Source: an uncultured Candidatus Saccharibacteria bacterium (GTDB lineage: Bacteria; Patescibacteriota; Minisyncoccia; UBA6257; JAGOQP01). From it: DNA of 64,000 nucleotides. Below are positions 3,042 through 54,810 of the stretch, piece by piece. The notes beneath the pieces are model-generated. The model saw only the letters and a list, made by a program, of their open reading frames with translations, had not been told where the DNA came from and searched no databases. The stretch's first letter is position 1. Every line of letters begins with the position of its first letter. The translations under genes were made by a program, and so were the position numbers. Location: the NCBI GenBank assembly GCA_964420205.1, contig CAYQSO010000002.1, forward strand, positions 7,765-71,764. Reading direction: 5' to 3'.

Positions 3042-3380
3042 CTATAAGTACATAATTGCAAGATAATTTATTAAGAGATGTGCTGTATTGTCTCTAATGA
3101 TATTTATCCAAACTATCAACCAAACTGGTCTATCAGATTTATTACTATTAAAATAGTTTATTATATTATCTATATACTCACCAAATTTAATATGATCTAT
3201 TATAGCATGCGATAAACATATAACGAGCAAAGCTAATGAACTTTGTGTAATAAGTAAAAATGGTAAGATATATGTCGCAGCATGTTGTAATGCTAATCCG
3301 AAATTCTCTTTTTTACCAAGTGCCTGCCTATCTGTTTGTAGCCAATAGTCACCTATCAAATGAGCTATTAATTGCTCCAT
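3042..3380 (-). CDS. small integral membrane protein
   Basis: Three hydrophobic helices (YILPFLLITQSSLALLVICL, VWLIVWINII, LLINYLAIMYL); overlaps the QueC-like gene by 32 nt. Confidence 0.4.
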   Translation of the reverse strand: MEQLIAHLIGDYWLQTDRQALGKKENFGLALQHAATYILPFLLITQSSLALLVICLSHAIIDHIKFGEYIDNIINYFNSNKSDRPVWLIVWINIIRDNTAHLLINYLAIMYL

Positions 3381-4050
3381 CTCTTAATTCCTTTTCATAC
3401 TTTGCTAATTTATACGTTATACATGGGGTGCACTTCCCACACTCTATTATTTCTTTATTATCTAAAACAGGTTCTTCACACCACCAACAAAAATCTAAAA
3501 GACCTTCCTCTTCTAATTTATTTATTATCTCCAATTTCCTTTTAAGTGATAAAGGGAGCCTCCAAAGAGTACCTGAACACCCCACCATACGAAATGAATT
3601 ATTAATTATACTTTCTAATTCACTATAAGTATACCATATAGAATCATTATATATATAACCTAAATAAATACTGGTATTATCATCAATAAATGATAGTATA
3701 TTTGAAAACCAATAAAAAAATTGTAACCCTGAAGTAGTTCCTTGTTCTACCCAATTAATTTTAGGTAGTTTTAAATCTATTTTAACTTTAGCATAATTTA
3801 CATTATAACCTAAACTTTTTAAATACTTTTTAAACTTTTTTCTACTTTCTTCTTCTTTTTTTATCTTCTCTGATCTTAATCCCCAAAATTCCACAGAGAC
3901 ACAATTAATAGAATGCCCCTCTTTCTTACCATACTTCTTACAAAGTTCATACAATAATAAAGTAGAATCACACCCACCCGACCAAAGCAATAAGTGTTTT
4001 GTATGACCTGACTCAGGGTAATCTCCCAGATAGAAATAATTTTCTTCCAC
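3349..4050 (-). CDS. queC: QueC-like PP-loop ATPase (7-cyano-7-deazaguanine synthase family)
   Basis: PP-loop SGGxDS (LLLWSGGCDSTLLL) near the N-terminus and a QueC-type C-terminal zinc motif C..C...CGKCTPC (compare B. subtilis CGECPACHLR). 233 aa. Confidence 0.55.
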   Translation of the reverse strand: MEENYFYLGDYPESGHTKHLLLWSGGCDSTLLLYELCKKYGKKEGHSINCVSVEFWGLRSEKIKKEEESRKKFKKYLKSLGYNVNYAKVKIDLKLPKINWVEQGTTSGLQFFYWFSNILSFIDDNTSIYLGYIYNDSIWYTYSELESIINNSFRMVGCSGTLWRLPLSLKRKLEIINKLEEEGLLDFCWWCEEPVLDNKEIIECGKCTPCITYKLAKYEKELRDGAINSSFDR

Positions 4051-4678: not shown

Positions 4679-5572
4679 TCAACTACTTTTTAAAATATAT
4701 TTCCTAACATCTACTAACAATTTTTCTAAATTTACATGTTCATAGATTCCTGAAGTAGAAAGAGCATTAATTTCTACTACTGCTTCGCACAGGTCACTGC
4801 CACTTGCCCAATAACAAACATCTATAGTGAAGCAATCTAAATCTATATTATGTATAATTTCTTCTACGTTTTCAAAAGTAGATTTAAATGGCTTTGGATC
4901 TATTGCAACAGTATTGTTTACATATAATGAATAAGTAGAAATCTTCTTACCTACTATATAAAACCTGTATTCATACATTATTTCTTTTTCAGTAGATAAA
5001 ACAAGAATTGTATCTTTACTTACTCTAAGGTTATTTAATTTCATCTTCATATCAAATGGACCAAAAGCAACAAATGATTCAAAAATCTTATCGCCTCTAT
5101 CTGGTTTTACAAAAATCCCATTTTTATGTTTCTTAGTATGGGATAGAATACGATCATAATCATGATAAAACTGCTCATAAAAATCCCCCATTAAAGTCCA
5201 CGCTGGTACAAATAAACAATCTTTATTTAATAAAAATTGTTTAAGAATATTGTAATACCTGCTTACGTTATAAAACTCATCAAAACCATAAAATAAAAAA
5301 TTATACCTCTTACCAATACTAGGATAATTTTCAAAATCTATATGTTCTGTAAGCTTTCTAATATTTTGAATACTTGTAAAACCTGTATACAACTGATCTT
5401 TTTTAATGCTAGGGAATTGGTATCTTAAATTATTTGGGCTACTAAAACAAGTTTGCATATCATAAACTTGTCTACTTTTATCACCAAAAGATTTTATTAT
5501 TTGTTTAACTTCCTTAAACTGTTCTTTAGATGAAAATATTATATCTTGTAAAAACCATGTAATCTTAGACAT
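4679..5572 (-). CDS. ATP-grasp family protein
   Basis: C-terminal CEAVVEINALSTSG resembles the ATP-grasp E-x-N/Mg motif; GIFVKPDRGDKIFESF resembles the ATP-grasp lysine loop. 297 aa. Confidence 0.4.
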   Translation of the reverse strand: MSKITWFLQDIIFSSKEQFKEVKQIIKSFGDKSRQVYDMQTCFSSPNNLRYQFPSIKKDQLYTGFTSIQNIRKLTEHIDFENYPSIGKRYNFLFYGFDEFYNVSRYYNILKQFLLNKDCLFVPAWTLMGDFYEQFYHDYDRILSHTKKHKNGIFVKPDRGDKIFESFVAFGPFDMKMKLNNLRVSKDTILVLSTEKEIMYEYRFYIVGKKISTYSLYVNNTVAIDPKPFKSTFENVEEIIHNIDLDCFTIDVCYWASGSDLCEAVVEINALSTSGIYEHVNLEKLLVDVRKYILKSS

Positions 5573-5891: not shown

Positions 5892-6539
5892 TTAAAATTC
5901 TATCCCTTTTCTCGCAGGAATGGTTATTAACGTTGCCCCGCAATTAGGACAATAATTACTCCTATATTCAAAACTTCTTTTACAGACCTCACAATGCTTA
6001 TCGAAATAATGTTTAACACATCTAATGTCTGAAAATAAATCTGATATGTCTTTTATTTTATCATATAAAGAGTCTGACCATATCCTACCCGTTAAAACAA
6101 GCTCAAGATTAGATGGTTTTTCTCTTATAAAATCAAAAAACTGTTTCTGAGTAAGTAACCCAAGATTTAAAGCAGGTAATACTTCATCTAAAATCAAGAT
6201 ATTGAACGGGTGCTCATTATTTTCAGTGAGGGTTAGTTTTTCTACCATCAACGACCACGTATTTTGAACGAGCTCTTTATCTTCAGAAGTTTTATTATGT
6301 TCCATTACAATTCTATTAGAGTTATGAGACTGGATTATTGTTATTTTATCTTGGAAAAGACCACACGTCTTTATTTCACCATACTCTGTGTTGTCATCCC
6401 CTTTTAAAAATTGAACAATAAAAACTTTCCAATTTTTAGCTATTGACCGAAACGCAAGTCCAAAAGCACTAGTAGTCTTCCCTTTCCCTGAACCCGTATA
6501 GGTTTGTATGAACCCGTGATTTTTTAATTCATGTCCCAA
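5892..6539 (-). CDS. cobA: ATP:cob(I)alamin adenosyltransferase (CobA/BtuR/CobO family) with C-terminal zinc-ribbon extension
   Basis: TYTGSGKGKTTSAFGLAFRSI...VFIVQFLKG matches the CobA P-loop (TGNGKGKTTAAFG...VVQFIKG). ILILDEV and LVLTGR...VKHYFD match the remaining CobA blocks. An extra CEVCKRSF...CPNCG lies at the C-terminus. Confidence 0.8.
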   Translation of the reverse strand: MGHELKNHGFIQTYTGSGKGKTTSAFGLAFRSIAKNWKVFIVQFLKGDDNTEYGEIKTCGLFQDKITIIQSHNSNRIVMEHNKTSEDKELVQNTWSLMVEKLTLTENNEHPFNILILDEVLPALNLGLLTQKQFFDFIREKPSNLELVLTGRIWSDSLYDKIKDISDLFSDIRCVKHYFDKHCEVCKRSFEYRSNYCPNCGATLITIPARKGIEF

Positions 6540-6556
6540 AATCCATACCTACCTTT

Positions 6557-9500
6557 CTAACGTATGGGGCATACCCCATTTTCACAATCACTACCTAAAT
6601 CATCATCTAAATTATATTGTTTTTCATATTTAGCTATCAATTCGGGTGTTATTTTACCAAATTGTTTATTTAACTTATTATATTCTTCTTCTGTAATTGC
6701 TTCATAAGGGGCTAAAGGGTATTTAGCATCATACAAAGGTAAAAAAGATATTCCAACAAAATCATCCCAATTCTCATAAACCCAATCTATTACACCTGCC
6801 CATTCATTATCTCGAACAGTAACCGTGATAGATGTGTTATGGTCTGTGTAATTTCTCATGAACATTTTATAAGTTTCTAATTGTTCTATTGCACTAATAT
6901 CATATTTATTTTTACCTTCGGGTGACTTTACATAAAAATCTATTACATTAGTATCACAAGTTTCAGGGTCCTGTCCTACTTCAGGTGATATATTATATCC
7001 CAATTCTTCTGCTACTTTTAATAAAGGGTCCCCTGAATTAATTCGCACTCTTCTAATATAGTAAGGGGAGTGTGAATGATGAACACCCGGAGATATAGTG
7101 GGAAGTAAACTAAGTGTTCCAGAAGGTTTAATTGTAGTGACTAACTTAGGGGTATTTCTTCCTAGGGAATTTGCTATTTTAGTTGCTTCCGTACGTGCTG
7201 TTTCTCTTAGGAGTTTTAAAATAGATACTTGGTTCTCTTCCGACTTATCGTAGAGTAAATTCACTGCGTCTTGCCACCCACTTAAAGCTACCCCTAGTAA
7301 CATATGTTCTTCTTGGACTTTTTTCCATTCTGGTAACTCAATATTTACACAAGCCATTCTATACGAAGCACGTGTAAACGTCCTAACAGCATTTAATATT
7401 TCTTCATTAAGCTCCCCATCTTTTACAAAAGATTTTACATTAATCTCTACTAAATTACAAAATCCTTTAGAAGGTAAAAGTATCTCACAATTATGAACCA
7501 TAAAACCATTTACTATGCCCCAATGAGATAAAGGTTCTTCGAAATCAAAAACATCATGCTCCCCTATATGAGAAATATCTTCTATCGTAACAGTATTATA
7601 GTCACGTATTGAATCATTTTTCTTACAGTAAGACTGAAAAATCAAGCATTTACCTTTTAAATCCTTTGCTTTGCAATTTGAACCATCCTCAAGCATAAAA
7701 ATATGGTCTTCTGTACATTTTATAATTCTATTATTAGACATTTTTAACCTAATACAAGGTTTACGACCAGTAAACCAAACTTTGCCTTGTGATATATTTC
7801 CATCAGCATTTATTATATCTATTTGCTTCTCATTCAGTTCTTTAAAAGTTTTATAACCTTTTGATGTCAATAATTTCATATCCCCCGTAAAACAACAGGG
7901 ATTTAGCCCTTCCATAGTAGGGAGTCTACGTTGAGCCTCTTGTTTATTAATAAAGCCAGGTTCACCTGTAGTTTTTATACTGTTAAATATTTCTACCAAC
8001 TCTTCTTTCGACGGTCTTTTATTGAATAGAATACTATTGTTGCTCGATACCCTATGTGTTTTGTTTGGGTCAGATACCCACGCACCATCTTCATTTTGAT
8101 AGTAAATACCTTGTTTAGCCAGTCTCACGTCTTCATCGTCTTTATCAAATAAACAAACTAATGCAGTCCTTCTTACACCCCCAACCTGAACTGCGCATCC
8201 TACTAAATTACATATATCTAAAATGTCTATAGTTTTTAAACTACCATTAGACCTACTTACAATACCTATAATTTTCTCAAACAATATTTTAAGGGGGACA
8301 TGCCCACTTGCATAACCACCAAAAGTTTTTAAGGGGGCGCCTTCAGGTCTAACATTATCGAAGTCTACTAATATAGTAGATAATAGAGGGTTCTCTAAAC
8401 ATTTGAACAAGTACCTTAAGGCACCTACCCAACCCTCCTTAGAATCCCCTACAACAATAGTAGCGACGTTACCTGTGGTTTGTAATGTACTAAACTCTTC
8501 TTTATCTATTTTTTCAGAATATTCTTTAGATAATATTCTAATACTTGTATTTAAATTAGAAAAAGCACTAATATTTTCTATTACATCTAAAAAACCAACC
8601 CCACAACCTAATAAGAGGAGATAAAATAACTCACAGATATCTTCTGTATTATCTATTTTTGTAAAAGAACAATTTTTAGTCAATATATTATTCGCCAGAG
8701 TAAATGATTCTGTTTCTGGTTCAACAACACACCAAACATCTTCTATAATATCTGTTTCTTCTACACCTTTCACAACCCACGAAGGTTCAAAACTTGTTTC
8801 TTTTACACTTGACTTATGTTTACTATTCAAAAAGAAATCATCTGGTACATGTTTTGAATATAAATTCAATCTATAATTCGGAGCGTATTCTCCAGTATAC
8901 GGTGAAAGTTCTCTATTTAATTCAACTTTTCCACAATCAATACCTAATATAGAAAATATACTTTTAATATGGTCTAATGTGTTTTTATTAGAATTACTTA
9001 TTGAGATATTACTCTTGTAATAAGACCCATCTGTGGCAAATAAGCCCATCACAAACCCCATTAAATATTCCACATTAGAGTTCAGAGATGGGAGATTTTT
9101 CCATGTATTTGGTAGGCCATATATCACTTTCTGGTTATATTTTCCAGCGGTACATTGAGACCCTGTTGTAAAATATAATGCAAGTTCCTGCTTATTATCT
9201 ACTAAATGAACCCTACAATGGTTCATTTTTTTATTATATGTCCCATCTCCAAAAACCATACCATGTTGTATCCCAACAGAACACGGAACTATATTAGTTT
9301 GTTCATATCTTCTTTTCTCTCTCAAAATATCGCCATTTTTTAACTCATTAGTAGTCTTAACAATAAATTTTTTCTCAGACTTGTACCTTTTTACATACCA
9401 CCTATGATTTTCTGTAGTGTAAATAATATCTTCTCTTTTACCTCTACCAACAATCAACTTTACCAATTTAGACTTTCCGAAATTTCTAATAGTAGCAGTT

Positions 9501-9928
9501 TTCCACCCACCAGTAGAGGATAATATATCTACGTTATCACCATCACTAAAATCATTAAATGACTTTATTCCTTGCTTTGTTATAAATTCTGTATCTGATT
9601 TAAAACAGTTAAAATTACTAGAGGCATATTTTTTAGAGCTCTCTGTTCCACCTACCCATAATGTTCTGCCGCTTAAAAATCCTTTAAGGTTAAATATCGT
9701 ATCAAATAATTGCTCTGCTTCTCTTATAGAAACTCCATGAACTAACGAACAATTATATTCTACTGCTCTCCTAACTGTCTCCCACCAATACTCTCTTCTA
9801 TTTTGTTCTGGTAAATATCTTGAATAAGTTCTATAATAAACAAACTCTCCCAATGAAGTCATCGGTGGATTCACATCTTTATATTTACTTATAAATTCTT
9901 CACTTAATAACATTAATTTATGCCTCAC
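6557..9928 (-). CDS. nrdJ: adenosylcobalamin-dependent class II ribonucleotide reductase precursor, interrupted by two inteins
   Basis: N-terminal EFVYYRTYSRYLPEQNRREYWWETVRR is the class II RNR signature; NPC...EI thiyl-radical site; 1123 aa. About 450 aa is accounted for by two Hint/intein insertions. Confidence 0.85.
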   Translation of the reverse strand: MRHKLMLLSEEFISKYKDVNPPMTSLGEFVYYRTYSRYLPEQNRREYWWETVRRAVEYNCSLVHGVSIREAEQLFDTIFNLKGFLSGRTLWVGGTESSKKYASSNFNCFKSDTEFITKQGIKSFNDFSDGDNVDILSSTGGWKTATIRNFGKSKLVKLIVGRGKREDIIYTTENHRWYVKRYKSEKKFIVKTTNELKNGDILREKRRYEQTNIVPCSVGIQHGMVFGDGTYNKKMNHCRVHLVDNKQELALYFTTGSQCTAGKYNQKVIYGLPNTWKNLPSLNSNVEYLMGFVMGLFATDGSYYKSNISISNSNKNTLDHIKSIFSILGIDCGKVELNRELSPYTGEYAPNYRLNLYSKHVPDDFFLNSKHKSSVKETSFEPSWVVKGVEETDIIEDVWCVVEPETESFTLANNILTKNCSFTKIDNTEDICELFYLLLLGCGVGFLDVIENISAFSNLNTSIRILSKEYSEKIDKEEFSTLQTTGNVATIVVGDSKEGWVGALRYLFKCLENPLLSTILVDFDNVRPEGAPLKTFGGYASGHVPLKILFEKIIGIVSRSNGSLKTIDILDICNLVGCAVQVGGVRRTALVCLFDKDDEDVRLAKQGIYYQNEDGAWVSDPNKTHRVSSNNSILFNKRPSKEELVEIFNSIKTTGEPGFINKQEAQRRLPTMEGLNPCCFTGDMKLLTSKGYKTFKELNEKQIDIINADGNISQGKVWFTGRKPCIRLKMSNNRIIKCTEDHIFMLEDGSNCKAKDLKGKCLIFQSYCKKNDSIRDYNTVTIEDISHIGEHDVFDFEEPLSHWGIVNGFMVHNCEILLPSKGFCNLVEINVKSFVKDGELNEEILNAVRTFTRASYRMACVNIELPEWKKVQEEHMLLGVALSGWQDAVNLLYDKSEENQVSILKLLRETARTEATKIANSLGRNTPKLVTTIKPSGTLSLLPTISPGVHHSHSPYYIRRVRINSGDPLLKVAEELGYNISPEVGQDPETCDTNVIDFYVKSPEGKNKYDISAIEQLETYKMFMRNYTDHNTSITVTVRDNEWAGVIDWVYENWDDFVGISFLPLYDAKYPLAPYEAITEEEYNKLNKQFGKITPELIAKYEKQYNLDDDLGSDCENGVCPIR
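7490..7894 (-). mobile_element. intein 2 in nrdJ (about 135-aa mini-intein at the NPC active site)
   Basis: NPC|CFTGDMKLL...GFMVHN|CEILLP: N-terminal Cys, C-terminal HN, +1 Cys, and no endonuclease domain. Coordinates by residue counting (aa 679..813). Confidence 0.6.
8672..9607 (-). mobile_element. intein 1 in nrdJ (about 312 aa, LAGLIDADG homing-endonuclease type)
   Basis: Starts with Cys right after NFN (CFKSDTEF...) and ends ...ILTKN before the CSF extein. LAGLIDADG-like blocks HGMVFGDGTY and LMGFVMGLFATDGSY. Coordinates come from residue counting (aa 108..419). Confidence 0.65.
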
Positions 9929-11483: not shown

Positions 11484-11957
11484 TTACTTACCAGTACTTC
11501 CCCAACCACCGTCACTTCTAATTGTTTCAGAAATCTCATCCACCTCTCTTATTCCCGCTCTACAATATTGCACAATAACCATCTGTGCTATTCTCTCATT
11601 AGGTTGAATAGTATAAGGTTCTTTAGATAGATTAATTAACGGAACACCCACAATACCACGAAAATCTGAATCCAATGTTCCTATACAATTGACAAGTGTT
11701 ATTCCGTGTTTTATTGATAGCCCTGAGCGAGGTCTTATCTGAGCTTCAGTCCCTTCCGGTAATTCTACTATTAATCCTGTGGGGATAATTCTTCTTTCAA
11801 ACGGTTGCAGTGTTATAGGTTCTTTTATACAAGCACTCAAATCCATTCCCGAAGAACCTATTGTTTTATACTCAGGTATTATTGCATTTGGGTCTGCTTT
11901 TTTAATATTAACTTCTGTAATTTTATTTGAACAATTACACATCATCTCTTTTTCCAC
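11484..11957 (-). CDS. dut: dUTP diphosphatase (dUTPase)
   Basis: All five dUTPase motifs are present: GSSGMDL, RPRSGLS, GTLDSDFRGIVGV and the C-terminal RSDGGWGSTGK (motif V). 157 aa. Confidence 0.85.
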   Translation of the reverse strand: MEKEMMCNCSNKITEVNIKKADPNAIIPEYKTIGSSGMDLSACIKEPITLQPFERRIIPTGLIVELPEGTEAQIRPRSGLSIKHGITLVNCIGTLDSDFRGIVGVPLINLSKEPYTIQPNERIAQMVIVQYCRAGIREVDEISETIRSDGGWGSTGK

Positions 11958-12625: not shown

Positions 12626-13960
12626 TCATTCTAAAACAATTACATTTGAAGTTACTAATTCGCTTTTTCTTGCTTCATTGTACTCTCTTTTGTTGTTGCT
12701 TGCAACAACTACTTGAGTTTGTTTTAACACTCCACAAGCTTTACTAACTCTAACAGAATTAAAGTTAGTTCCCGACAAGCCATCGGTACATGTATTCCTT
12801 ACTTCATTAAGTAGGATATAATCTTTACAGTTCTTGAGATTAACTGCTGCATTGTAGTCTCTTTGGTGCTCTGCACCACAATTACTACATTTCCAGTTTC
12901 TATCTTTTAATTTTAGTTCTTTATTCTTCTCTCCACAGCTACTACATAACTTACTACTTGGAAAGAATTTATTTACTTCTCTTACTTCTATATTATGTTT
13001 TGTACACTTCTGTACAAGAACTTGTTTAAAATAGTAAGGTTTATTTTGAAGAATAGTTTTAGAAAGATGTTTGTTCCTAACCATTCCTTTAATATTTAAG
13101 TTTTCAACTGTAACATATCTAGGTTTCCCCTTAACTATGTTATCTATACATTTATTAGTATAAGAGTTTCTTATTTGTTCTAACCTGTAGTACACTTTTT
13201 CTACTCTTAGTTTATTTTTAATATAATTGTTACTTACTTTATCTCTCTTTTCTTTCTTCTTAGCTTCGTACTTTCTACTTAAAGCTCTCTGTTCTCTTCT
13301 TAATTTCTTTTCTAACTTTTTAACTCTAGTAGTTTTATTAATGTTTTTGTATTCTTCTTTGTTAGAACATGTTAAGAAAGTACTTATTCCCCAATCAATA
13401 CCAATACCTTCATTACAATTCTTATTATCTTTACTACTCTCTTCATCTGTTATAACAGAGATGAAATATCTATTAGATCTCTTAGTTATTACTCCACTTA
13501 TTATTTTATTGTTTCCTGTAGGGAGGTATCCTTTCTCTTTCAGAGAAACCTCTCCGAACATAGGAATTTTAATTTTATGCCTAGAACATCTTATAGGTCT
13601 GTTTGCCTCTACTCTAACAAAATAAACTCCTGTCTTGTCTTTAGAAGCTTTTTTAAATTTAGGAAATCCTTTCTTTGATTTAAATGCTTTTTGGTAAGTT
13701 GAATTACAATTATCTATAGTCTTTCTAAGAGCTTTACTCCCTGCTTCTTTCAACCAATGTTTATCTTCGTTCTCTTTTAAATAAACATTATTAAACCATT
13801 TAGAGAACTCGTAGTTATTAAGATATTTTTCTCCTGCGGAGTAACGTTCTTTATTAACAGAAATAAAAAGATTCCAGACAAATCTACATGCAGAAATTGT
13901 AAGCTTGTAAAGCTTCTCCTGTTCTTTATTTAGTTTTACTTCTGTCTTGTAAGCTTTCAT
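12626..13960 (-). CDS. tnpB: TnpB (IS200/IS605-family OrfB; OMEGA RNA-guided RuvC nuclease), copy 1
   Basis: Canonical MKAYKTEVKLNKEQEKL N-terminus, C-terminal zinc finger CSSCGEKN...CSNCGAEHQRDYNAAVNL (RuvC-III). The track ORF extends to 14086, but Met43 at 13958..13960 is the likely start, judged by alignment to copy 2. Confidence 0.85.
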   Translation of the reverse strand: MKAYKTEVKLNKEQEKLYKLTISACRFVWNLFISVNKERYSAGEKYLNNYEFSKWFNNVYLKENEDKHWLKEAGSKALRKTIDNCNSTYQKAFKSKKGFPKFKKASKDKTGVYFVRVEANRPIRCSRHKIKIPMFGEVSLKEKGYLPTGNNKIISGVITKRSNRYFISVITDEESSKDNKNCNEGIGIDWGISTFLTCSNKEEYKNINKTTRVKKLEKKLRREQRALSRKYEAKKKEKRDKVSNNYIKNKLRVEKVYYRLEQIRNSYTNKCIDNIVKGKPRYVTVENLNIKGMVRNKHLSKTILQNKPYYFKQVLVQKCTKHNIEVREVNKFFPSSKLCSSCGEKNKELKLKDRNWKCSNCGAEHQRDYNAAVNLKNCKDYILLNEVRNTCTDGLSGTNFNSVRVSKACGVLKQTQVVVASNNKREYNEARKSELVTSNVIVLE

Positions 13961-13993
13961 TGATAAAAAGAAAAGTTCTAAGAAATTATTTTG

Positions 13994-14057
13994 TAAGCAG
14001 ATACAATTCTTCCTAGAACTAAAATTAATATAAATCTTATTTAATTGTATCTGCTTA
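13994..14057. repeat. perfect 15-bp inverted repeat (taagcagatacaatt / aattgtatctgctta) with 34-nt spacer in the presumed IS left end
   Basis: Read directly from sequence (13994..14008 and 14043..14057); lies between the real tnpB start and the over-extended track start. Confidence 0.7.
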
Positions 14058-14175
14058 ATATTATAATTTAACTTAAAATTTTTCATTTAGATTTCCCTGT
14101 AAAGGTATTAAAAATGAATATGTTTTACATATATTTGATTATGTTATGGGAGACTGTTCATTATCTTCTCTCCTC

Positions 14176-32125: not shown

Positions 32126-32947
32126 CTATTCTTCTATCTCATTTGAATCTGGTTCAGCAAAACACATGTTTTCTTTCTTAGGTTTTAAACCACAACTTTT
32201 AAATTCATTACAGTACCCTAAAGAAAAACATTTAGGTTTAAGATACGGTTTAAGCCAATTCTCCTTTTTTAAAACCTCTAATGCCATTTCCTTAACCAAC
32301 GCCCTAATTTCTTGTTGAGCATTATTACACATTCTTAAGTTACATAAATGTATCAATGCTTGTAAATTACACGTAACTACTACATTTGTTTTGAAATTTA
32401 ACCCTAAAATACCCCTAGCATCTTCTGCTTTTACCCCCCTTTGAACAAGTTGTCTATAACTCAGCATGCTGTTAAAACAGGCTACTTTATATAATTCTAG
32501 TTGTTCCTCAGTTTTAAGATTGGGTATTACATAATACTTTTCTACGTCTACTTTTTTTAACGTTTCAAAATCAAACTCAACATATCTCATTGACTGTTGA
32601 GAGTAAGCAAACCCTGCAATATGCCTTTCTAACTGATTAATACAAGCCCTACTTACACCACTTAATGTAAATACAAAATTAATATGTCTAAGTACTGATA
32701 AATGCCCAGAATTAATAACCTTATTTACAAGAGATAAAACTTTTTTAGTATTTACTTTATTTACTTTTTCACAAGTACCTAACTCAAATAATAGACAAAT
32801 AGGATCGTGTTCACTTGTGCAATCTTTACAAGGGTTAATAACTTCTTCAAAGATTGCTTCAGGCGTTTGTTCTGAATAACACGTCCTACACGCTGTATAT
32901 ATTATTTCTTTTAAATTATTTGGTTTACTTATTAATTTTACTTCCAT
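32126..32947 (-). CDS. thyX: flavin-dependent thymidylate synthase ThyX
   Basis: ThyX signature RHxxxSxxxxSxRY present as LERHIAGFAYSQQSMRYV; 273 aa. Confidence 0.85.
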   Translation of the reverse strand: MEVKLISKPNNLKEIIYTACRTCYSEQTPEAIFEEVINPCKDCTSEHDPICLLFELGTCEKVNKVNTKKVLSLVNKVINSGHLSVLRHINFVFTLSGVSRACINQLERHIAGFAYSQQSMRYVEFDFETLKKVDVEKYYVIPNLKTEEQLELYKVACFNSMLSYRQLVQRGVKAEDARGILGLNFKTNVVVTCNLQALIHLCNLRMCNNAQQEIRALVKEMALEVLKKENWLKPYLKPKCFSLGYCNEFKSCGLKPKKENMCFAEPDSNEIEE

Positions 32948-38353: not shown

Positions 38354-41300
38354 TTAGAGCGGTTTCGGTATTAAAGTAGTACGTGATTCATCATCTACCC
38401 ATTTAAAATCGAATATTTGTCCAAAACGATACCCCAGTCCAATTGTAGCTTTAATAGGCAAAGGCCAATCTGGTAAGCTAAAATACATTATATCTTCTAT
38501 TAACCTAGTGTATTCTACTATTTTATCTAAATCAACATAAAGGTTCACTTCGTCATGTATTGTCGAAAGAAAAGCACACTCTTTTTCTTTTTCGGATATA
38601 CTAAATATTTTCTGATACATCTTCTTAAGAACTATACGCATAATATCCCCCGCACTTCCCTGGATTATGTGGCTGCTGACTCTTCTCTCAGCAGCAGATA
38701 TCATATTATTTGACTCTCTTTCACCTTTCCTAGGGTCTTCTGCTTCTCTTTCTATCCTCTCAGCCATATTTACATATGACCCGAAGCGTCTGGGCCTCCC
38801 ACAGAACGTAAATGTAGTTCCGGCATTATTCCACATCTTATTTATTTCATTTTGTCTCCATTGCATAGCCCCAAAAAAAGCTTCACAATAGGCATCATAA
38901 AGAGCTGTTGCGTGTTCTAACGGGATTCCAGAATTCTTAGATATGGAATCAGAATGACCACTATAATTTATAGCAAAATTCACAGCCTTTGCTATTTTTC
39001 GTAGCCCCTTGTTATAATTTTCTCTACCCCATATAGCGTACGCTGTCGCAGTATGTGGATCAATACCTTCCCTGAAATTTGATAACTTTACACTATCTTT
39101 ACTGTAATTAGTAAGGAGAACGTCTTCCTGTGAACTGTAATCCACACTCAAAATAATCTTTTTCTTACTATTAACCTTTTTAAATGATGGAACTACTACA
39201 CAATTTCTAATATTAAAATTAGGGGAGAACCCTTCTACTAAATAACAGTCTTCTGAGTCAGTGTGGTTTTTAATGTCTTCATCAGACATTAAATCAAAAC
39301 ACCAACCTAATATATTACCCTCTTTCTCAGATTTGTATGCTTTATAAATCGCTCCTGACGGTTTACTAAGATTCTGCGCATTAAGATCTATATAATAGGG
39401 GTTCTTAGTCTTCTTATCACTCTTACTCCCATTACCACTTGCAAATCTCCCTGAAGCGGTCCCAAAAAGTTTATATCTCATCCTACACTCATCTACCTTA
39501 GTCAGTTTATCAATGTAACTATTGATAGCCTTATTCATAGTAGAGTACTTCTGTATCTTCTTTAAAATACTTAACTTTTCATTTTCTTTTTTAAGCATTA
39601 TTTTTAATATTTTTAAAAAATATTTTCTATTGAGAATTCTACTTCCTTTTTTAAGCGGAACTAGTTTCTTATTTTTATTCTTTCTTTTCGCTCTGCTCAA
39701 TACTCTTATAGTATTGTTATTCAACTGCATTACTTGGAAATAGTCACTCCCATGTGCTTCTAGTATTTTATATAAATAAAACATATCTACGTGTTCTCTT
39801 ATATGTAATTCTGAAGCACAAAATCCTTTTGTAAAATAACCTTCTTCATTCTTTTCTAATTTTTCTATAATACCTCGTAAATCTGTTAAATTCTTAGAAA
39901 ATATTCTTGTACCATCTTTTTTACCAAAAGAAATCTGATCTGTATCTGTCCTTGCCCCAGTATCTATATTCTTAGATGCCATAGCATTTTTAAACTCTTT
40001 AGAAGAGGTACTAAGGTTGAATATTCCTATATCAAAATAATTATATATTTCCTCCTTAAGCTGAGTTATTACTTCGATAGCTTTTTCTTTATATTTTTTA
40101 GCTTCTTCTTTATCTATATAAAGTTTAGTATGTCCATAATAATCAATCCAATACCTTATAAGAGTGTTGTCTGATTTTATAACGTCAAATTTTTTACCGT
40201 TAAACTCTACTATATTGGGGTAAGTACTTATTAGTTTTTTAACTTTCGGATATAAATAGTAAAAAAGTGCCAAGCAGCAACATGAGTCTGCACAATTACC
40301 CGAAACCAAGACTTTACCATTTCTTCTAGTTATTAAAGTGTGATTTGGTACTTCTGCACAATAAACCACCCCACTATATGGAACAATTTCTCTCTGGTAT
40401 TTCTTGTATCTAACACTTTTCTGTCTTTGTGTGTACACACTATAAATTTGGTGCACATTTTCTCTTTTTATTACACGTCCTCTAATAACACAGTCTTTTT
40501 TAGGTGGTGCTTTTAAAGTTAATATACTAGTCCTACCACCCAACATTAATAGCTCTTGTAACTGATTAGCCATTTTGATAGATGTAGTATAAAAAACCCA
40601 CGCTGAGTCAGTTTTTCTAGACCCATCACAATAATTAAAATATTTTAGAAACTCATTTATACAGTACGAATCCATTTTAAAAATTTCAGGTGGAATATAC
40701 TTTTTCTGAGCCTTACCTTCCATATAAGGTTTTATCCAATTATAAAACTTTTTATTATAACAAACCCAGCTATTCCCTTTTTCTCTTTTGTTAGGGCGAA
40801 ACCCCATATTAGTTTCCATTAACATATTTTCTAACTCTTTTTTGAATTTATCGCTACAAACAGCCAGCCCTATGTGATAACAAACTTGCTTGTCGCCTCT
40901 TTGAACAATCCAACCATCTGCCAACAACGCACCTGTTAATCTGGCTAATTGTACAGGGGTTAAATTAACATTCTTACTAAAATGAAAAGAATCCTTCCCA
41001 CTACCTTTCTTCTCTGTGGGAGCTTTATAACCGCTTTCTTCAACTAAAAGATCTTTTGCCTGTTTGAATACCCATTCTTTATGTTGTGCTCGCTTAACTA
41101 GCATATTATGGTTGGGGGTAACACAAAAATCAAGATGTTTACTTTTATAAGAAATCATCTCTCCTTTATATTCATACGCATATAACCTTAGAGGACGCTG
41201 GTACTCTAATTCATCTTTTTCCACATTTACAGTAGCTAAAAGGTCTTCTCCATTATAATCTTTCCACATTACCCAACCATTTTCAGTCAATACTTCAGTC

Positions 41301-42319
41301 TGATCATCGTGGCATGCATAAATAACTGTGCTCCTATCGTAGGGGCATACATACTTGAATTCACCCGGAAATTCTAACATAGTACGTCCTAGATACAATT
41401 TAGCACTTAACTTAAGTCCTGCCATTTTTGACTCCGCATCAAAAAGATACGGAAGTATCATAGAGTCAAAAAAGTTAACTTTTTCAATAGAATAACCTTC
41501 TTTCTTATACATATTAAGGTCAAATTCAGCATTATGGATTACTACTAACTTTGCACTTGTTAAAGCTTTATATAAAATATCAAGGGACTTTTTTGCACTT
41601 CTCTCATTTTCTTCTTCTGTTAAAACATAACTAGAAACTTCCATTTCAGATAAATGCTTTTCAAAGTCTCCTATCATACAGTCTATACTACCAAGTTTAG
41701 CTTCTACTACTTCTTTTTCTAAATCTTTAGAATTTTCAAGAAAGTTTTCTTTATCTTGTTTTAACCCATCTATTAATTTTTGCGTCTCTTCTCTTTGTCT
41801 CTGTAATTCTAATTGCTCCCTTACTTCTTTGCTACATATATTTCCATTATGTAATGAATACTCATACGTCTTTACCGTAGTCTGACTTACTCTTCCTGTT
41901 TTAGTATATACTACATTTCCTTCTTCATCTAATTTAGGAACTTTTTCTGAACCCACTTCTTTTTTTCGCATATGTCTCAAAGGGCAATAAATCCCCGAAT
42001 TGTCGTCCAGTGAAAGAGAGAACCCTACAATGTAATCACCACCTTCTTCTCGAGGTGAACTGTTCAGTCCAGTAGTTTCAGTGTCAAACCCGATTATCTT
42101 ATCTTTACAAAGTTCTACGAATTCTTCCAACTCTTCTAAAGTATTAACAAGTTTATAGTCCCCTAAATAAATAAGATTCCCTTCCTCATCGTATTTATGA
42201 AACTTATTATCAAACTCTCTATAACCATGTACAGGTATATATTTGTACAACGTTTTACTGCTTTTTTTCTTTTGTTCTACCTTTTGTTGAACATATTTTT
42301 TCTTATAATCTTTTGTCAT
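38354..42319 (-). CDS. family A DNA polymerase (3'-5' exo plus polymerase domains) precursor containing an intein
   Basis: Exo I IGFDTETTGL; polymerase motif A LSVDYSSQE, motif B RKIAKAVNFAINYS, motif C LSTIHDEVN. The likely true start is MTKDYKK, 12 codons inside the track ORF (which begins at 42355). Confidence 0.85.
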   Translation of the reverse strand: MTKDYKKKYVQQKVEQKKKSSKTLYKYIPVHGYREFDNKFHKYDEEGNLIYLGDYKLVNTLEELEEFVELCKDKIIGFDTETTGLNSSPREEGGDYIVGFSLSLDDNSGIYCPLRHMRKKEVGSEKVPKLDEEGNVVYTKTGRVSQTTVKTYEYSLHNGNICSKEVREQLELQRQREETQKLIDGLKQDKENFLENSKDLEKEVVEAKLGSIDCMIGDFEKHLSEMEVSSYVLTEEENERSAKKSLDILYKALTSAKLVVIHNAEFDLNMYKKEGYSIEKVNFFDSMILPYLFDAESKMAGLKLSAKLYLGRTMLEFPGEFKYVCPYDRSTVIYACHDDQTEVLTENGWVMWKDYNGEDLLATVNVEKDELEYQRPLRLYAYEYKGEMISYKSKHLDFCVTPNHNMLVKRAQHKEWVFKQAKDLLVEESGYKAPTEKKGSGKDSFHFSKNVNLTPVQLARLTGALLADGWIVQRGDKQVCYHIGLAVCSDKFKKELENMLMETNMGFRPNKREKGNSWVCYNKKFYNWIKPYMEGKAQKKYIPPEIFKMDSYCINEFLKYFNYCDGSRKTDSAWVFYTTSIKMANQLQELLMLGGRTSILTLKAPPKKDCVIRGRVIKRENVHQIYSVYTQRQKSVRYKKYQREIVPYSGVVYCAEVPNHTLITRRNGKVLVSGNCADSCCCLALFYYLYPKVKKLISTYPNIVEFNGKKFDVIKSDNTLIRYWIDYYGHTKLYIDKEEAKKYKEKAIEVITQLKEEIYNYFDIGIFNLSTSSKEFKNAMASKNIDTGARTDTDQISFGKKDGTRIFSKNLTDLRGIIEKLEKNEEGYFTKGFCASELHIREHVDMFYLYKILEAHGSDYFQVMQLNNNTIRVLSRAKRKNKNKKLVPLKKGSRILNRKYFLKILKIMLKKENEKLSILKKIQKYSTMNKAINSYIDKLTKVDECRMRYKLFGTASGRFASGNGSKSDKKTKNPYYIDLNAQNLSKPSGAIYKAYKSEKEGNILGWCFDLMSDEDIKNHTDSEDCYLVEGFSPNFNIRNCVVVPSFKKVNSKKKIILSVDYSSQEDVLLTNYSKDSVKLSNFREGIDPHTATAYAIWGRENYNKGLRKIAKAVNFAINYSGHSDSISKNSGIPLEHATALYDAYCEAFFGAMQWRQNEINKMWNNAGTTFTFCGRPRRFGSYVNMAERIEREAEDPRKGERESNNMISAAERRVSSHIIQGSAGDIMRIVLKKMYQKIFSISEKEKECAFLSTIHDEVNLYVDLDKIVEYTRLIEDIMYFSLPDWPLPIKATIGLGYRFGQIFDFKWVDDESRTTLIPKPL
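40295..41314 (-). mobile_element. intein in DNA polymerase (about 340 aa, LAGLIDADG type) inserted in the Exo III motif (YA|C..D)
   Basis: VIYA|CHDDQTEVLTENGW...LARLTGALLADGW...FLKYFNYCDGS...VPNHTLITRRNGKVLVSGN|CADSCCCLALFYYL; the extein junction restores the Y-x-x-x-D exo motif. Coordinates by residue counting (aa 348..687). Confidence 0.6.
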
Positions 42320-42644
42320 TATTAAAATTAACTCCTGTACTAGATAAACCAACATTAGTGAAATTAAAATCTTTGTACTTCCACCAATCTTTTTTCTTCA
42401 TCATCTTTTTAACTTTTCTTGGGTACTTATCCCACCTACAGTACTTCCCGATACCTAATATGTAATTAAATATTATTAATTTTACTCTATTTTCTATATT
42501 AGTTTGAATTTCTCCCACACATTCGCCATAGGGCTCTCTTACAGCAGAAGTAGCAGTATCTCTTGACTCACATAAATATTGAGACGATATTCCTGTTGCC
42601 ATAACAATGTCTTGTCTTAATTTATATAATCTCTCTTCTATCAT
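42303..42644 (-). CDS. hypothetical protein
   Basis: 113-aa ORF upstream of the polymerase. Confidence 0.3.
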   Translation of the reverse strand: MIEERLYKLRQDIVMATGISSQYLCESRDTATSAVREPYGECVGEIQTNIENRVKLIIFNYILGIGKYCRWDKYPRKVKKMMKKKDWWKYKDFNFTNVGLSSTGVNFNNDKRL

Positions 42645-53339: not shown

Positions 53340-54810
53340 TATTGTTCTCCTTACCTATTGACTTTTAATCTGTTGAACTAAAGACTCTATATACAAATCA
53401 AACTGCTCCAAATTAGTAACTTTAAACATAATTTATCCTACTTGAAGTTACTAATTCGCTTTTTCTTGCTTCTCCAGTATACCTGTTAGGTATACAATCG
53501 TACTCTCTTTTATCACCAGAGGCGACTACTTGAGTTTGTTTTAACACTCCACAAGCGTTAATTCCCGACAAGCCATCGGTATTTACACTATTTAACAATG
53601 TGTATTCTTTACAATTCTTAAGGTTTACTGCTGCATTGTAGTCTCTCTGGTGCTCTGCACCACAACTACTACATTTCCAGTTCCTATCTTTTAATCTTAA
53701 CATATTATTTTTAGTATTACAAATACTACATAATTTAGATGAAGGGTAAAATCTACCTACTTCTCTTACTTCTATATTATGTTTAGTACACTTTTGTGTT
53801 AGAGTTTGTTTAAAGTAATAAGGTTTATTTTGTAGGGTAGCTTTACTTAGATGTCTGTTTTTAACCATTCCTTTTACATTAAGGTTCTCAATAGAAACAA
53901 ATTTAGGTTTCTTCCTAACTATATCATCAATACACTTATTAATGTAGGAATTTCTTATTTGTTCTAACCTATAATGAAGTTTAGAAACTTTATCTTTATT
54001 CTTTATATAATTGTTAGAAACTCTATCTCTTTTCTCTTTTTTCTTGGCCTCGTACTTCCTATTTAAAGCTCTCTGTTGTCTTTTAAGATTTTTTTCTAGC
54101 TTCTTAATCTTAGTAGTCTTATTAATATTTTCGTAACTAGTACTATTAGAACATGTCAAATATGTACTAATCCCCCAGTCAGCACCAATTCCTTCATTAC
54201 AATTCCTGTAATCTCTCGTACTCTCCTCGTATACTATAACAGAGATAAAATACTTACTAGCTCTCTTAGTTATTGCTCCACTTATTATTTTATTAGACTC
54301 TATAGGAAGATATCCTTTTTCTTTTATGTGTATCTCTCCAAACATAGGAACTTTTATCTTGTGTCTCTCACATTTAATAGGTTTATCTAAAGATGCTCTT
54401 ACAAAATATACCCCTGTCTTATCAGTAGAAGCTTTTTTAAATTTAGGAAATCCTTTCTTCTCCTCCATAAATTTAACATAAGTATTATCACAATTCATCA
54501 TTGTCTTCCTAAGAGCTTTACTTCCAGCTTCCTTTAACCACTGTTTATCTTCATTCTCTTTGAGATACTCATTATTGAACCATTTACTAAAGTTGTAGTT
54601 ATTAAGATATTTTTCTCCTACGGAGTATCTTTCTTTATTAACAGAGATAAACAAATTCCAGACAAACCTACAAGCTGAAGTAGTAAGCTTGTAAAGCTTT
54701 TCCTGTTCCTTATTTAATTTTATCTCTGTTCTATAAGCTTTCATTAATGGGACTGTTCTATCTTTTATACTCATCAAATGTGTAAAATAATGTTATTAAA
54801 ATTTAATTTA
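53340..54810 (-). mobile_element. second TnpA-less IS605-family element (boundaries approximate)
   Basis: tnpB copy 2 with a 10-bp inverted repeat aattagtaac/gttactaatt flanking its stop codon (53411..53456) and a 3' flank partly shared with copy 1 (aaacataat). Confidence 0.45.
53422..54744 (-). CDS. tnpB: TnpB (IS200/IS605-family OrfB; OMEGA RNA-guided nuclease), copy 2
   Basis: MKAYRTEIKLNKEQEKLYKLTTSACRFVWNLF N-terminus; CSICNTKNN...CSSCGAEHQRDYNAAVNL C-terminus. Roughly 70 percent identical to copy 1 by eye. The track start at 54777 is 11 codons upstream of the canonical MKAY start. Confidence 0.85.
   Translation of the reverse strand: MKAYRTEIKLNKEQEKLYKLTTSACRFVWNLFISVNKERYSVGEKYLNNYNFSKWFNNEYLKENEDKQWLKEAGSKALRKTMMNCDNTYVKFMEEKKGFPKFKKASTDKTGVYFVRASLDKPIKCERHKIKVPMFGEIHIKEKGYLPIESNKIISGAITKRASKYFISVIVYEESTRDYRNCNEGIGADWGISTYLTCSNSTSYENINKTTKIKKLEKNLKRQQRALNRKYEAKKKEKRDRVSNNYIKNKDKVSKLHYRLEQIRNSYINKCIDDIVRKKPKFVSIENLNVKGMVKNRHLSKATLQNKPYYFKQTLTQKCTKHNIEVREVGRFYPSSKLCSICNTKNNMLRLKDRNWKCSSCGAEHQRDYNAAVNLKNCKEYTLLNSVNTDGLSGINACGVLKQTQVVASGDKREYDCIPNRYTGEARKSELVTSSRINYV

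What the first reader, a model, noticed from the sequence alone, without database searches (positions are those of the whole stretch)
7490..7894. Mini-intein inserted exactly at the thiyl-radical NPC-x-EI active site of the RNR, with Cys replacing the expected Gly at +1
The junction reads LNPC|CFTGDMKLL...GFMVHN|CEILLPSKGFCNL. Class II RNRs normally have NPCGEI; here the extein +1 residue is Cys (needed for splicing), so the spliced enzyme would read NPCCEI. A second, full-length LAGLIDADG intein (8672..9607) sits after the NFN|CSF motif. Two inteins in one catalytic gene, one in the radical site itself, makes enzyme activity strictly splicing-dependent.
Basis: seen in the sequence. Interest (0 to 1): 0.6.

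Follow-up and report, generated by a model that had tools for sequence, protein, structure and literature searches.

The report
Mini-intein in phage RNR radical site
A phage gene for a vitamin-B12-dependent ribonucleotide reductase is interrupted by two self-splicing protein elements (inteins), the smaller one right after the catalytic radical cysteine; this is real, but it is an ordinary new example of a long-known and very common arrangement.

Summary
ORF 6557..9928 (-) encodes a monomeric class II ribonucleoside-triphosphate reductase (RTPR). It is interrupted by a 135-aa mini-intein (7490..7894) and a 312-aa LAGLIDADG intein (8672..9607). Removing both gives a 676-aa protein that matches the RTPR model end to end.

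The mini-intein sits between Cys408 (the thiyl radical cysteine, L. leichmannii numbering) and residue 409, which is Cys here and Gly in the two solved class II enzymes. It has every catalytic residue of a class 1 intein. Its model (pLDDT 93.7) superposes on solved mini-inteins at TM about 0.8.

It is not unusual:
- It belongs to a family of RNR inteins with 1622 significant hits in a library of 50%-identity cluster representatives.
- About 133 of the best 149 sit one residue upstream, where the thiyl Cys itself is +1. About 12 sit at this exact site, with Cys or Ser at +1.
- This site was described in 2009 for the NrdJ-1/2 split inteins.
- At least six of the 149 carry inteins at both sites, as the window gene does.

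One correction: the nearest relatives that lack an intein at this site already read NPCCEI or NPCVEI. Cys409 is therefore a trait of this phage clade, not a change specific to the intein-bearing allele.

Verdict: a new member of a known kind, of low interest.

The parts
6557..9928 (-). Precursor ORF (1123 aa plus stop) for a monomeric adenosylcobalamin-dependent ribonucleoside-triphosphate reductase (RTPR/NrdJm) carrying two inteins
   Evidence: The precursor scores 341 bits on TIGR02505 RTPR, in 3 stretches. The spliced 676-aa extein scores 380.2 bits in one stretch covering model positions 4-724 of 724. The match to 1L1L has E=1.5e-59.
7490..7894 (-). Mini-intein, 135 aa (residues 679-813), class 1 type, with no endonuclease domain. 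Cys1 is at 7892..7894, block B T61-E-D-H64 at 7703..7714, and His134-Asn135 at 7490..7495.
   Evidence: TIGR01445 scores 39.9 bits against a cut-off of 24.5. The intein keeps all 12 family-invariant residues. A family profile hits only intein chains in the PDB, best E=4.5e-10. The AF2 model has pLDDT 93.7. Foldseek gives TM 0.80-0.87 to Ssp DnaB, Npu DnaB/DnaE and Mtu RecA inteins.
7895..7897 (-). Codon of the -1 residue, the thiyl-radical cysteine (equivalent to Cys408 of L. leichmannii RTPR), within the motif N-P-C
   Evidence: Gap-free HMMER alignment to 1L1L.
7487..7489 (-). Codon of the +1 Cys, the splice nucleophile (position 409). It is Gly in 1L1L and 1XJE, and Cys or Val in the nearest relatives that lack an intein at this site.
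8672..9607 (-). Second intein, 312 aa (residues 108-419), with two LAGLIDADG motifs (GIQHGMVFGDGTY and LMGFVMGLFATDGSY). It ends in T-K-N, with no penultimate His.
   Evidence: Pfam LAGLIDADG_3 scores 29.8 bits against a cut-off of 22.5. Full-length homologues sit at the same xFN|C site in other RNRs: P0132 (E=1.8e-39), P0246, P0125 and P0210. They end in T-[G/H/K]-N.
8669..8671 (-). Codon of the +1 Cys of the second intein. It is the conserved active-site Cys119 equivalent, one of the redox pair with Cys419.
   Evidence: In the alignment to 1L1L, sLNNCwF pairs with sSNFNCsF. NFNC is conserved in the homologues.
9608..9928 (-). Extein segment 1 (residues 1-107), the RNR_Alpha domain
   Evidence: Pfam PF17975, E=1.5e-26.
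7898..8668 (-). Extein segment 2 (residues 421-677; the flanking Cys codons are listed separately), comprising the class II insertion domain and the first half of the barrel
   Evidence: Pfam PF21995 and PF02867.
6560..7486 (-). Extein segment 3 (residues 815-1123). It holds Glu410 and Cys419 equivalents and the C-terminal DCENGVCPIR redox tail (Cys731 and Cys736 equivalents).
   Evidence: Alignment to 1L1L.
5892..6539 (-). Context: an ATP:corrinoid adenosyltransferase (CobA/CobO/BtuR) immediately downstream, the likely supplier of the RTPR cofactor
   Evidence: Pfam PF02572, E=4.3e-41. The same gene order is found in relatives L001-L005.

Best explanation
The segment is a cis-splicing class 1 mini-intein lodged in the active-site loop of a phage class II (AdoCbl-dependent, monomeric) ribonucleotide reductase. 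It lies between the thiyl-radical Cys408 (-1) and residue 409 (+1, Cys).

Inferred mechanism, following the canonical class 1 pathway:
1. Cys1 attacks the Cys408-Cys1 peptide bond (N-S acyl shift), helped by block B Thr61 and His64.
2. The +1 Cys409 takes over the N-extein by trans-thioesterification.
3. Asn135 cyclises, helped by His134 and the block F Asp and His, and releases the intein.
4. An S-N shift leaves a normal Cys408-Cys409 peptide bond, giving N-P-C-C-E-I.

A second, endonuclease-bearing intein must be removed in the same way before Cys119. Until both are excised, the catalytic residues are separated and the enzyme should be inactive.

The mini-intein has no endonuclease, so it is not mobile on its own. 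It is a reduced member of a large RNR-specific intein family whose full-length members carry a LAGLIDADG domain. It probably persists because only a precise deletion would restore a working enzyme.

Shown here: identity, boundaries, fold, conserved catalytic residues, family membership, and tolerance of Cys409 in natural intein-less relatives. Inferred: that splicing happens, and that the precursor is inactive.
For: - **Boundaries.** They were verified on the sequence. Removing both segments turns a 3-stretch RTPR match (341 bits) into a single full-length match (380 bits).
- **Host enzyme intact.** The gap-free alignment to 1L1L places Asn406, Cys408, Glu410, Cys419, Cys119, Cys731 and Cys736, and all are present.
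- **Absent from homologues.** The insert is missing from the 118 other top extein homologues with a readable motif.
- **Intein signatures.** The segment passes TIGR01445 above its cut-off. It keeps family-invariant C1, T10, G13, L20, G43, C60, T61, V115, D117, F118, G126 and N135. It keeps 10 of 11 near-invariant residues, including H64 and H134.
- **Fold.** The family profile hits only inteins in the PDB. The AF2 model has pLDDT 93.7 and Foldseek gives TM about 0.8 to solved mini-inteins, including NrdJ-1 (8ubs).
- **Family size.** There are 1622 homologues at E<=0.001. Among 127 extracted inteins, lengths are bimodal: about 49 are 123-140 aa and about 70 are 297-332 aa.
- **Same site elsewhere.** About 12 of the best 149 hits sit at the same site, with C or S at +1.
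- **Cys409 tolerated.** Relatives without an intein at this site read NPCCEI.
- **Long residence.** GC3 is 0.215 for the mini-intein, 0.221 for the big intein and 0.219 for the extein.
- **Literature.** Dassa et al. 2009 describe this insertion point for NrdJ-1/2. They describe the point one residue upstream as the commonest RNR intein site.
Against: - No experiment shows splicing of this precursor.
- Block B reads T-E-D-H where 90% or more of the family has T-P-x-H, although one other member also has TEDH.
- Pfam Intein_splicing scores 31.6 bits, below its gathering cut-off of 35.8.
- The second intein lacks the penultimate His (T-K-N). This is normal for its family, but its splicing efficiency is unknown.
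- Phage RNRs are auxiliary genes, so selection against a non-splicing allele could be weak.
Confidence: 0.88

Rival explanations
1. The mini-intein, the second intein, or both are decayed and no longer splice. The phage RTPR would then be a dead gene carried as a relic, with the phage relying on host RNR.
For: - Splicing is untested.
- The mini-intein lacks an endonuclease, which marks a late stage of the intein life cycle.
- Block B has Glu where the family has Pro.
- The second intein ends in K-N.
Against: - The 3372-nt frame is open.
- Every catalytic residue of both the intein and the extein is kept.
- All 12 family-invariant positions are intact.
- The cofactor-supplying CobA gene is kept next to the RTPR.
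- An almost identical allele, differing at 3 extein residues, appears in a second assembly.
- T-[G/K/H]-N is the normal ending of the second intein's family.
Confidence: 0.07
2. Splicing at this site is conditional, gated by redox state. The three adjacent cysteines (Cys-1, Cys1, Cys+1) could form a disulfide that blocks the first steps until the cell is reducing. RNR activation would then be tied to thioredoxin status. This would add to the canonical mechanism rather than replace it.
For: - The C-C...N-C junction is present.
- Redox-trapped inteins are known in general (review PMC7765530).
- A relative encodes a thioredoxin three genes downstream of the RTPR (L001).
Against: - Nothing specific to this sequence supports it.
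- Most family members sit one residue upstream with Pro at -1 and manage without a Cys at -1.
- Site-b members with Ser at +1 exist.
- Vicinal Cys-Cys disulfides are strained and uncommon (general knowledge).
Confidence: 0.08
3. The 135-aa segment is a native insertion domain of this RNR lineage rather than an intein.
For: None beyond its being in frame.
Against: - It is absent from all close homologues, which read NPCCEILLPSKGFCNL without interruption.
- It has the Hint fold and the intein motifs.
- It would split the N-x-C-x-E catalytic motif.
Confidence: 0.01

Closest known systems
NrdJ-1 / NrdJ-2 split inteins from ocean metagenomes (Dassa et al. 2009, PMC2677866; structure 8ubs)
   Same: [quoted passage not shown] They have the same Hint fold (8ubs_A, TMq 0.73).
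   Different: NrdJ-1 is naturally split by a free-standing endonuclease gene and uses Ser at +1. The window intein is contiguous and uses Cys at +1. Sequence similarity is only weak: 8ubs scores E=5.7e-4 against the family profile.
Thiyl-Cys-site RNR inteins ('site a', NP|C...HN|CxE), for example in the RTPR of Nodularia phage vB_NspS-kac65v151 (MK605242) and Thermus phage G20c (KX987127)
   Same: The host enzyme is also a phage RTPR. The Nodularia intein belongs to the same intein family (CFTGDMRLLTSDGYKTF...THWGVVEGRIAHN). About 133 of the 149 best relatives of the window intein are of this type. Dassa et al. call this the most frequent RNR intein site.
   Different: They are inserted one residue upstream, so the thiyl Cys itself is the +1 nucleophile and Pro is at -1. 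The two phage examples carry an endonuclease domain (about 330 aa).
Mth RIR1 mini-intein of Methanothermobacter class II RNR (134 aa; recalled from memory of Evans et al. 1999, and named only as a purification tool in PMC7765530)
   Same: It is a natural endonuclease-free mini-intein of almost the same size in a class II RNR active-site loop.
   Different: As I recall, it sits at the upstream site with Pro at -1. I did not compare the sequences here.
Multi-intein class II RNRs (Pyrococcus; NCBIfam PRK08332 model of 1684 positions)
   Same: They carry several inteins in one RNR gene at catalytic motifs. The PRK08332 model matches the C-terminal part of the mini-intein plus the following extein. 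At least six of the 149 representatives (P0125, P0132, P0210, P0243, P0246, P0262) carry inteins at both the xFN|C site and the thiyl site, like the window gene.
   Different: Those are dimeric NrdJ enzymes of archaea. The window gene is a monomeric RTPR of a phage.

Membership tests
Intein (Hint domain, class 1) | In-frame insertion that is absent from orthologues and whose removal restores a contiguous conserved host motif | tested here: met
   The 118 other top homologues with a readable motif read NPCxE without interruption. The spliced product matches TIGR02505 in a single stretch, positions 4-724 of 724.
Intein (Hint domain, class 1) | Cys or Ser at position 1, and Cys, Ser or Thr at +1 | tested here: met
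   Cys1 (CFTGDM) and Cys+1 (CEILLP) are present.
Intein (Hint domain, class 1) | Block B TxxH, block F Asp/His, and block G terminal His-Asn | tested here: met
   T61-E-D-H64, VFDFEEPLSHWG and VHN135 are present, and all align with family-invariant columns.
Intein (Hint domain, class 1) | Hint fold | tested here: met
   The AF2 model has pLDDT 93.7. The top 50 Foldseek PDB hits are all inteins or Hint domains, with TMq 0.66-0.87. The single-sequence model was unusable.
Intein (Hint domain, class 1) | Curated profile thresholds | tested here: inconclusive
   TIGR01445 is passed (39.9 bits against 24.5). Pfam PF14890 falls short (31.6 bits against 35.8).
Intein (Hint domain, class 1) | Autocatalytic protein splicing | not testable with these tools
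   This needs expression followed by MS or western blot.
RNR thiyl-loop intein family (CFTGDM[KR]LLT...CTPDH...VYDFxEPxTHWGxVEGxxVHN) | Significant sequence similarity across the whole splicing domain, with an RNR as host | tested here: met
   There are 291 hits at E<=1e-10, the best at 1e-38 to 1e-42. Identity to 34 mini members is 40-53%.
NrdJ-1-type insertion point ('site b', after the thiyl Cys) | N-extein ends in N-P-C and C-extein begins with [C/S]-E | tested here: met
   The junction is NPC|C...HN|CEI. The same pattern is seen in P0128, P0130, P0151, P0166, P0210, P0211, P0233, P0235, P0236 and P0242. The site definition comes from Dassa 2009.
NrdJ-1-type insertion point ('site b', after the thiyl Cys) | Split arrangement with a free-standing endonuclease between the two halves | tested here: not met
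   The intein is contiguous and lies within one ORF.
Class II monomeric RTPR (TIGR02505) | Equivalog score above the cut-off, plus catalytic Cys119, Asn406, Cys408, Glu410, Cys419 and the C-terminal CxxxxC | tested here: met
   The score is 380.2 bits against a cut-off of 340.05. The residues align to 1L1L.
LAGLIDADG intein (second element, 8672..9607) | Two LAGLIDADG motifs between Hint N- and C-terminal parts, with the terminal Asn followed by a nucleophile | tested here: met
   PF14528 scores 29.8 bits against 22.5. The motifs were read in the sequence. Full-length same-site homologues exist. The penultimate His is absent (K), as in its family. No PDB sequence match was found.

The most novel reading that the evidence does not exclude
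Inteins of one family may have moved repeatedly by exactly one codon between the thiyl-Cys site (NP|C) and the next site (NPC|C/S). RNR variants that happen to carry Cys or Ser at position 409 would make this possible. On this reading, the NPCCEI alleles in the window's sister clade, which lack an intein at this site, are either the permissive 'landing' state or footprints of precise intein loss.

The evidence does not exclude this. Site-b inteins are scattered among site-a inteins rather than forming their own branch. They occur in at least five different extein contexts. Cys409 is shared by the window gene and 6 of 10 sister sequences, while outgroups have Gly or Ala.

The trees are poorly resolved at 40-60% identity, and no mechanism for a one-codon shift is known.
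Probability: 0.2. Interest if true: 0.45.

Novelty: new member of a known kind. Interest (0 to 1): 0.2.

Why it matters
The significance is modest.

- **Engineering.** It adds a natural, contiguous, very small (135 aa) Cys+1 intein at the site used by the NrdJ-1 split intein, a common protein-engineering tool. It could be tried as another orthogonal splicing module.
- **Enzymology.** Together with the relatives that lack an intein at this site, it shows that the residue next to the thiyl-radical cysteine of class II RNRs is not fixed as Gly. It can naturally be Cys, Val, Ala, Met or Phe.
- **Evolution.** One intein family occupies two adjacent codons of the same active-site loop. This is a tidy data set for asking how intein insertion points shift.

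None of this changes current understanding of inteins or RNRs.

Tried and rejected
- **Word-indexed protein search with the mini-intein alone.** It returned nothing, not even the parent protein. The exhaustive representative search replaced it.
- **Single-sequence AlphaFold model.** It was unusable at pLDDT 35.8. I repeated it with a 35-sequence family alignment.
- **Exact look-up of the public copy P0001.** It gave no contig, so the source organism and sample of the window stay unknown. The gene content is phage-like.
- **PDB sequence search with the 312-aa intein.** No hit at E<=1.
- **IMG/VR scan for close relatives of the extein.** I hoped for an empty-site allele of the same lineage, but the best match was 49% identical.
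- **First bootstrap tree of the exteins.** It timed out and I redid it with a faster distance routine.
- **Trees of the intein family.** The NJ tree and nearest-neighbour bootstraps cannot resolve whether site-b inteins arose once or many times. The base rate of site-a neighbours is already about 92%.
- **Alternative parse with the intein starting at the first Cys (NP|CC...HN|CEI).** I rejected it. The product NPCEI would lose the universal C-x-E spacing and the register with Cys419.
- **Native RNR insertion domain.** I rejected it.
Full report
**1. What is in the sequence**

The region lies in a single open reading frame on the minus strand, 6557..9928, of 1123 aa.
- Residues 679-813 (window 7490..7894, 135 aa) read CFTGDMKLL...GFMVHN. 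They are preceded by ...MEGLNPC and followed by CEILLPSKGFCNL.
- Residues 108-419 (8672..9607, 312 aa) read CFKSDTEF...NNILTKN. They are preceded by ...SSNFN and followed by CSFTKIDN.

Deleting both leaves 676 aa. The same protein is in the public collection as P0001, with a start 5 residues later. A copy differing at three extein residues (P0121) appears in a second assembly.

**2. The host protein**

The precursor matches NCBIfam TIGR02505 (adenosylcobalamin-dependent ribonucleoside-triphosphate reductase, RTPR) at 341 bits, in three stretches. The spliced 676-aa sequence matches it at 380 bits in one stretch covering model positions 4-724 of 724. This independently confirms both pairs of boundaries.

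The best solved relative is the Lactobacillus leichmannii RTPR, 1L1L (E=1.5e-59). In that alignment tNPCgEIsLangepCNL pairs with lNPCcEIlLpskgfCNL without a gap.
- The first Cys of the window's C-C pair is the thiyl-radical Cys408.
- The second Cys is position 409, which is Gly in 1L1L and in the Thermotoga enzyme 1XJE.
- Glu410 and Cys419 are in register.
- The +1 Cys of the larger insert aligns with Cys119.
- The C-terminal DCENGVCPIR aligns with the Cys731/Cys736 tail.

All catalytic residues of the host enzyme are therefore intact once the inserts are removed.

**3. The 135-aa segment is an intein**

- It passes TIGR01445 (intein N-terminal region) at 39.9 bits against a cut-off of 24.5. 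It falls just short on Pfam PF14890, at 31.6 bits against 35.8.
- An exhaustive HMMER search of 1.84 billion representative proteins found 1622 relatives at E<=0.001 and 291 at E<=1e-10.
- Aligned with 34 mini-sized relatives, it keeps all twelve invariant positions (C1, T10, G13, L20, G43, C60, T61, V115, D117, F118, G126, N135). It keeps ten of eleven near-invariant ones, including block B His64 and the penultimate His134. The one departure is Glu for Pro at position 62, which one other member shares.
- A profile of that alignment hits only intein chains in the PDB, including DnaE, DnaX, DnaB, gp41-1, RecA and NrdJ-1.
- With the alignment, AlphaFold gives a confident model (pLDDT 93.7). It superposes on solved mini-inteins at TM about 0.8. 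The single-sequence model was useless.

The segment is absent from the other top extein homologues.

**4. The second insert**

The 312-aa segment has two LAGLIDADG motifs and passes PF14528. Full-length homologues sit at the same xFN|C position in other RNRs: P0132 (E=1.8e-39), P0246, P0125 and P0210. Mini versions occur in P0243 and P0262.

Members of this family end in T-[G/K/H]-N. The missing penultimate His (T-K-N here) is therefore a family trait and not a sign of decay. Its +1 residue is the catalytic Cys119, so both inteins sit at active-site cysteines.

**5. How common this is**

I read the junctions of the 149 best relatives of the mini-intein.
- About 133 are inserted as xNP|C...HN|C[G/A/S]E. 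That is one residue upstream, where the thiyl Cys itself serves as the +1 nucleophile.
- About 12 are inserted exactly as in the window, NPC|C...HN|[C/S]E. Five of these have Ser at +1 (P0128, P0130, P0166, P0210, P0233). Five or six have Cys at +1 (P0151, P0211, P0235, P0236, P0242, probably P0163).

Intein lengths in the family are bimodal, at 123-140 aa and about 297-332 aa. A 135-aa endonuclease-free form is thus typical. At least six of the 149 carry inteins at both of the window's sites.

Published phage genomes show the upstream variant in the same enzyme. Nodularia phage vB_NspS-kac65v151 is annotated 'intein-containing RnR', and its intein belongs to the same family. Thermus phage G20c is a second example (PMC6459318).

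Dassa et al. [quoted passage not shown] They also report that their NrdJ-1/2 split inteins sit one residue further on, which is the window's site (PMC2677866). NrdJ-1 uses Ser at +1.

**6. The one correction: Cys409**

Among the top 120 extein homologues, position 409 is G (82), A (18), C (7), M (6), V (4) or F (1).

The ten closest homologues (60-64% identity) have no intein at this site. Six read NPCCEILLPSKGFCNL and four read NPCVEI. The DNA of one of them confirms AAT CCT TGT TGT GAA. In a distance tree these ten form the sister group of the window extein with 99% bootstrap support, while the next outgroups have Gly or Ala.

Cys409 is therefore a feature of this phage RTPR clade and is compatible with an intein-free enzyme. 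Two readings remain open. The Cys may have pre-dated the intein and made the site usable. Or the intein-less alleles may be products of precise intein loss.

**7. Context**

The whole window is transcribed from the minus strand and looks like a tailed-phage genome of 30% GC. It encodes a family A DNA polymerase, a DnaB-like helicase, ThyX, dUTPase, a tail protein and a DNA transfer protein.

An ATP:corrinoid adenosyltransferase gene lies directly downstream of the RTPR (5892..6539). The same pair is found in the relatives' contigs. This fits a phage that supplies both a B12-dependent reductase and the enzyme that makes its cofactor.

Third-position GC is about 0.22 in both inteins and in the extein. 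The inteins are therefore long-term residents of an AT-rich genome.

**8. Mechanism and rivals**

The best explanation is a canonical class 1 intein. The steps are the N-S shift at Cys1, trans-thioesterification to Cys+1 (residue 409), Asn135 cyclisation and the S-N shift. The result is the loop N-P-C-C-E-I. The precursor should be inactive because Asn406 and Cys408 are separated from Glu410 and Cys419, and Cys119 from its preceding sequence.

The steps themselves are inferred from family membership and were not tested. The rivals are:
- a decayed, non-splicing relic (about 7%);
- redox-gated splicing through the C-C...C junction (about 8%, and not exclusive of the main explanation);
- a native insertion domain (about 1%, already refuted).

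**9. Novelty and score**

This is a new member of a known kind. The host family, the intein family, the insertion point, the mini form and the two-intein architecture are all abundantly represented or published.

Two residual points of interest remain. One is the natural variability of the residue next to the radical cysteine. The other is the unexplained fact that one intein family occupies two adjacent codons without the site-b members forming a separate branch. My interest score is 0.2.

Noticed in passing
window 38354..42355 (-), intein about 40295..41314: The family A DNA polymerase ORF (1333 aa) carries a third intein of about 340 aa at residues 348-687, reading VIYA|CHDDQTEVLT...KVLVSGN|CADS. 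It has a LAGLIDADG_3 hit and a weak Intein_splicing hit, and apparently sits inside the 3'-5' exonuclease domain.
   Followed up: partly
window 12626..14086 (-) and 53422..54777 (-): Two TnpB / IS605 OrfB-like genes are present in the phage genome, each with HTH_OrfB_IS605, OrfB_IS605 and Cas12f1-like TNB domains.
   Followed up: no
window 5892..6539 (-): A CobA/CobO/BtuR ATP:corrinoid adenosyltransferase lies directly downstream of the RTPR. It has an extra C-terminal CxxC...CxxC tail (CEVCKRS...YCPNCG). The RTPR-CobA gene pair is conserved in relatives L001-L005, and a cobalamin adenosyltransferase lies near the RTPR of Nodularia phage kac65v151.
   Followed up: partly
P0008 (locus L001 3539..6634) and P0110: Close RTPR relatives carry LAGLIDADG inteins at other sites: KPSG|C...SHN|TLSLLP in P0008 and GGVRR|C...VHN|SSQ in P0110. 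This phage RTPR clade has therefore been invaded at four or more different conserved motifs.
   Followed up: no
window 8672..9607 (-) and homologues P0125, P0132, P0210, P0246, P0262: The intein family at the xFN|C (Cys119) site ends in T-G-N, T-K-N or T-H-N. It generally lacks the penultimate His that most inteins use for Asn cyclisation.
   Followed up: partly
window 32126..32947, 11484..11957, 3349..4050, 4679..5572 (all -): The window holds a nucleotide-metabolism gene set around the RTPR: ThyX, dUTPase, a weak QueC-like ORF (22.1 bits against a gathering score of 22, no stretch passing on its own) and an R2K-type ATP-grasp protein.
   Followed up: no
locus L003 186..4984: In a contig carrying a related RTPR, the upstream gene is a DNA polymerase III alpha (PHP domain). 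It appears to be broken by an intein and a separate LAGLIDADG ORF. The window instead has a family A polymerase.
   Followed up: no
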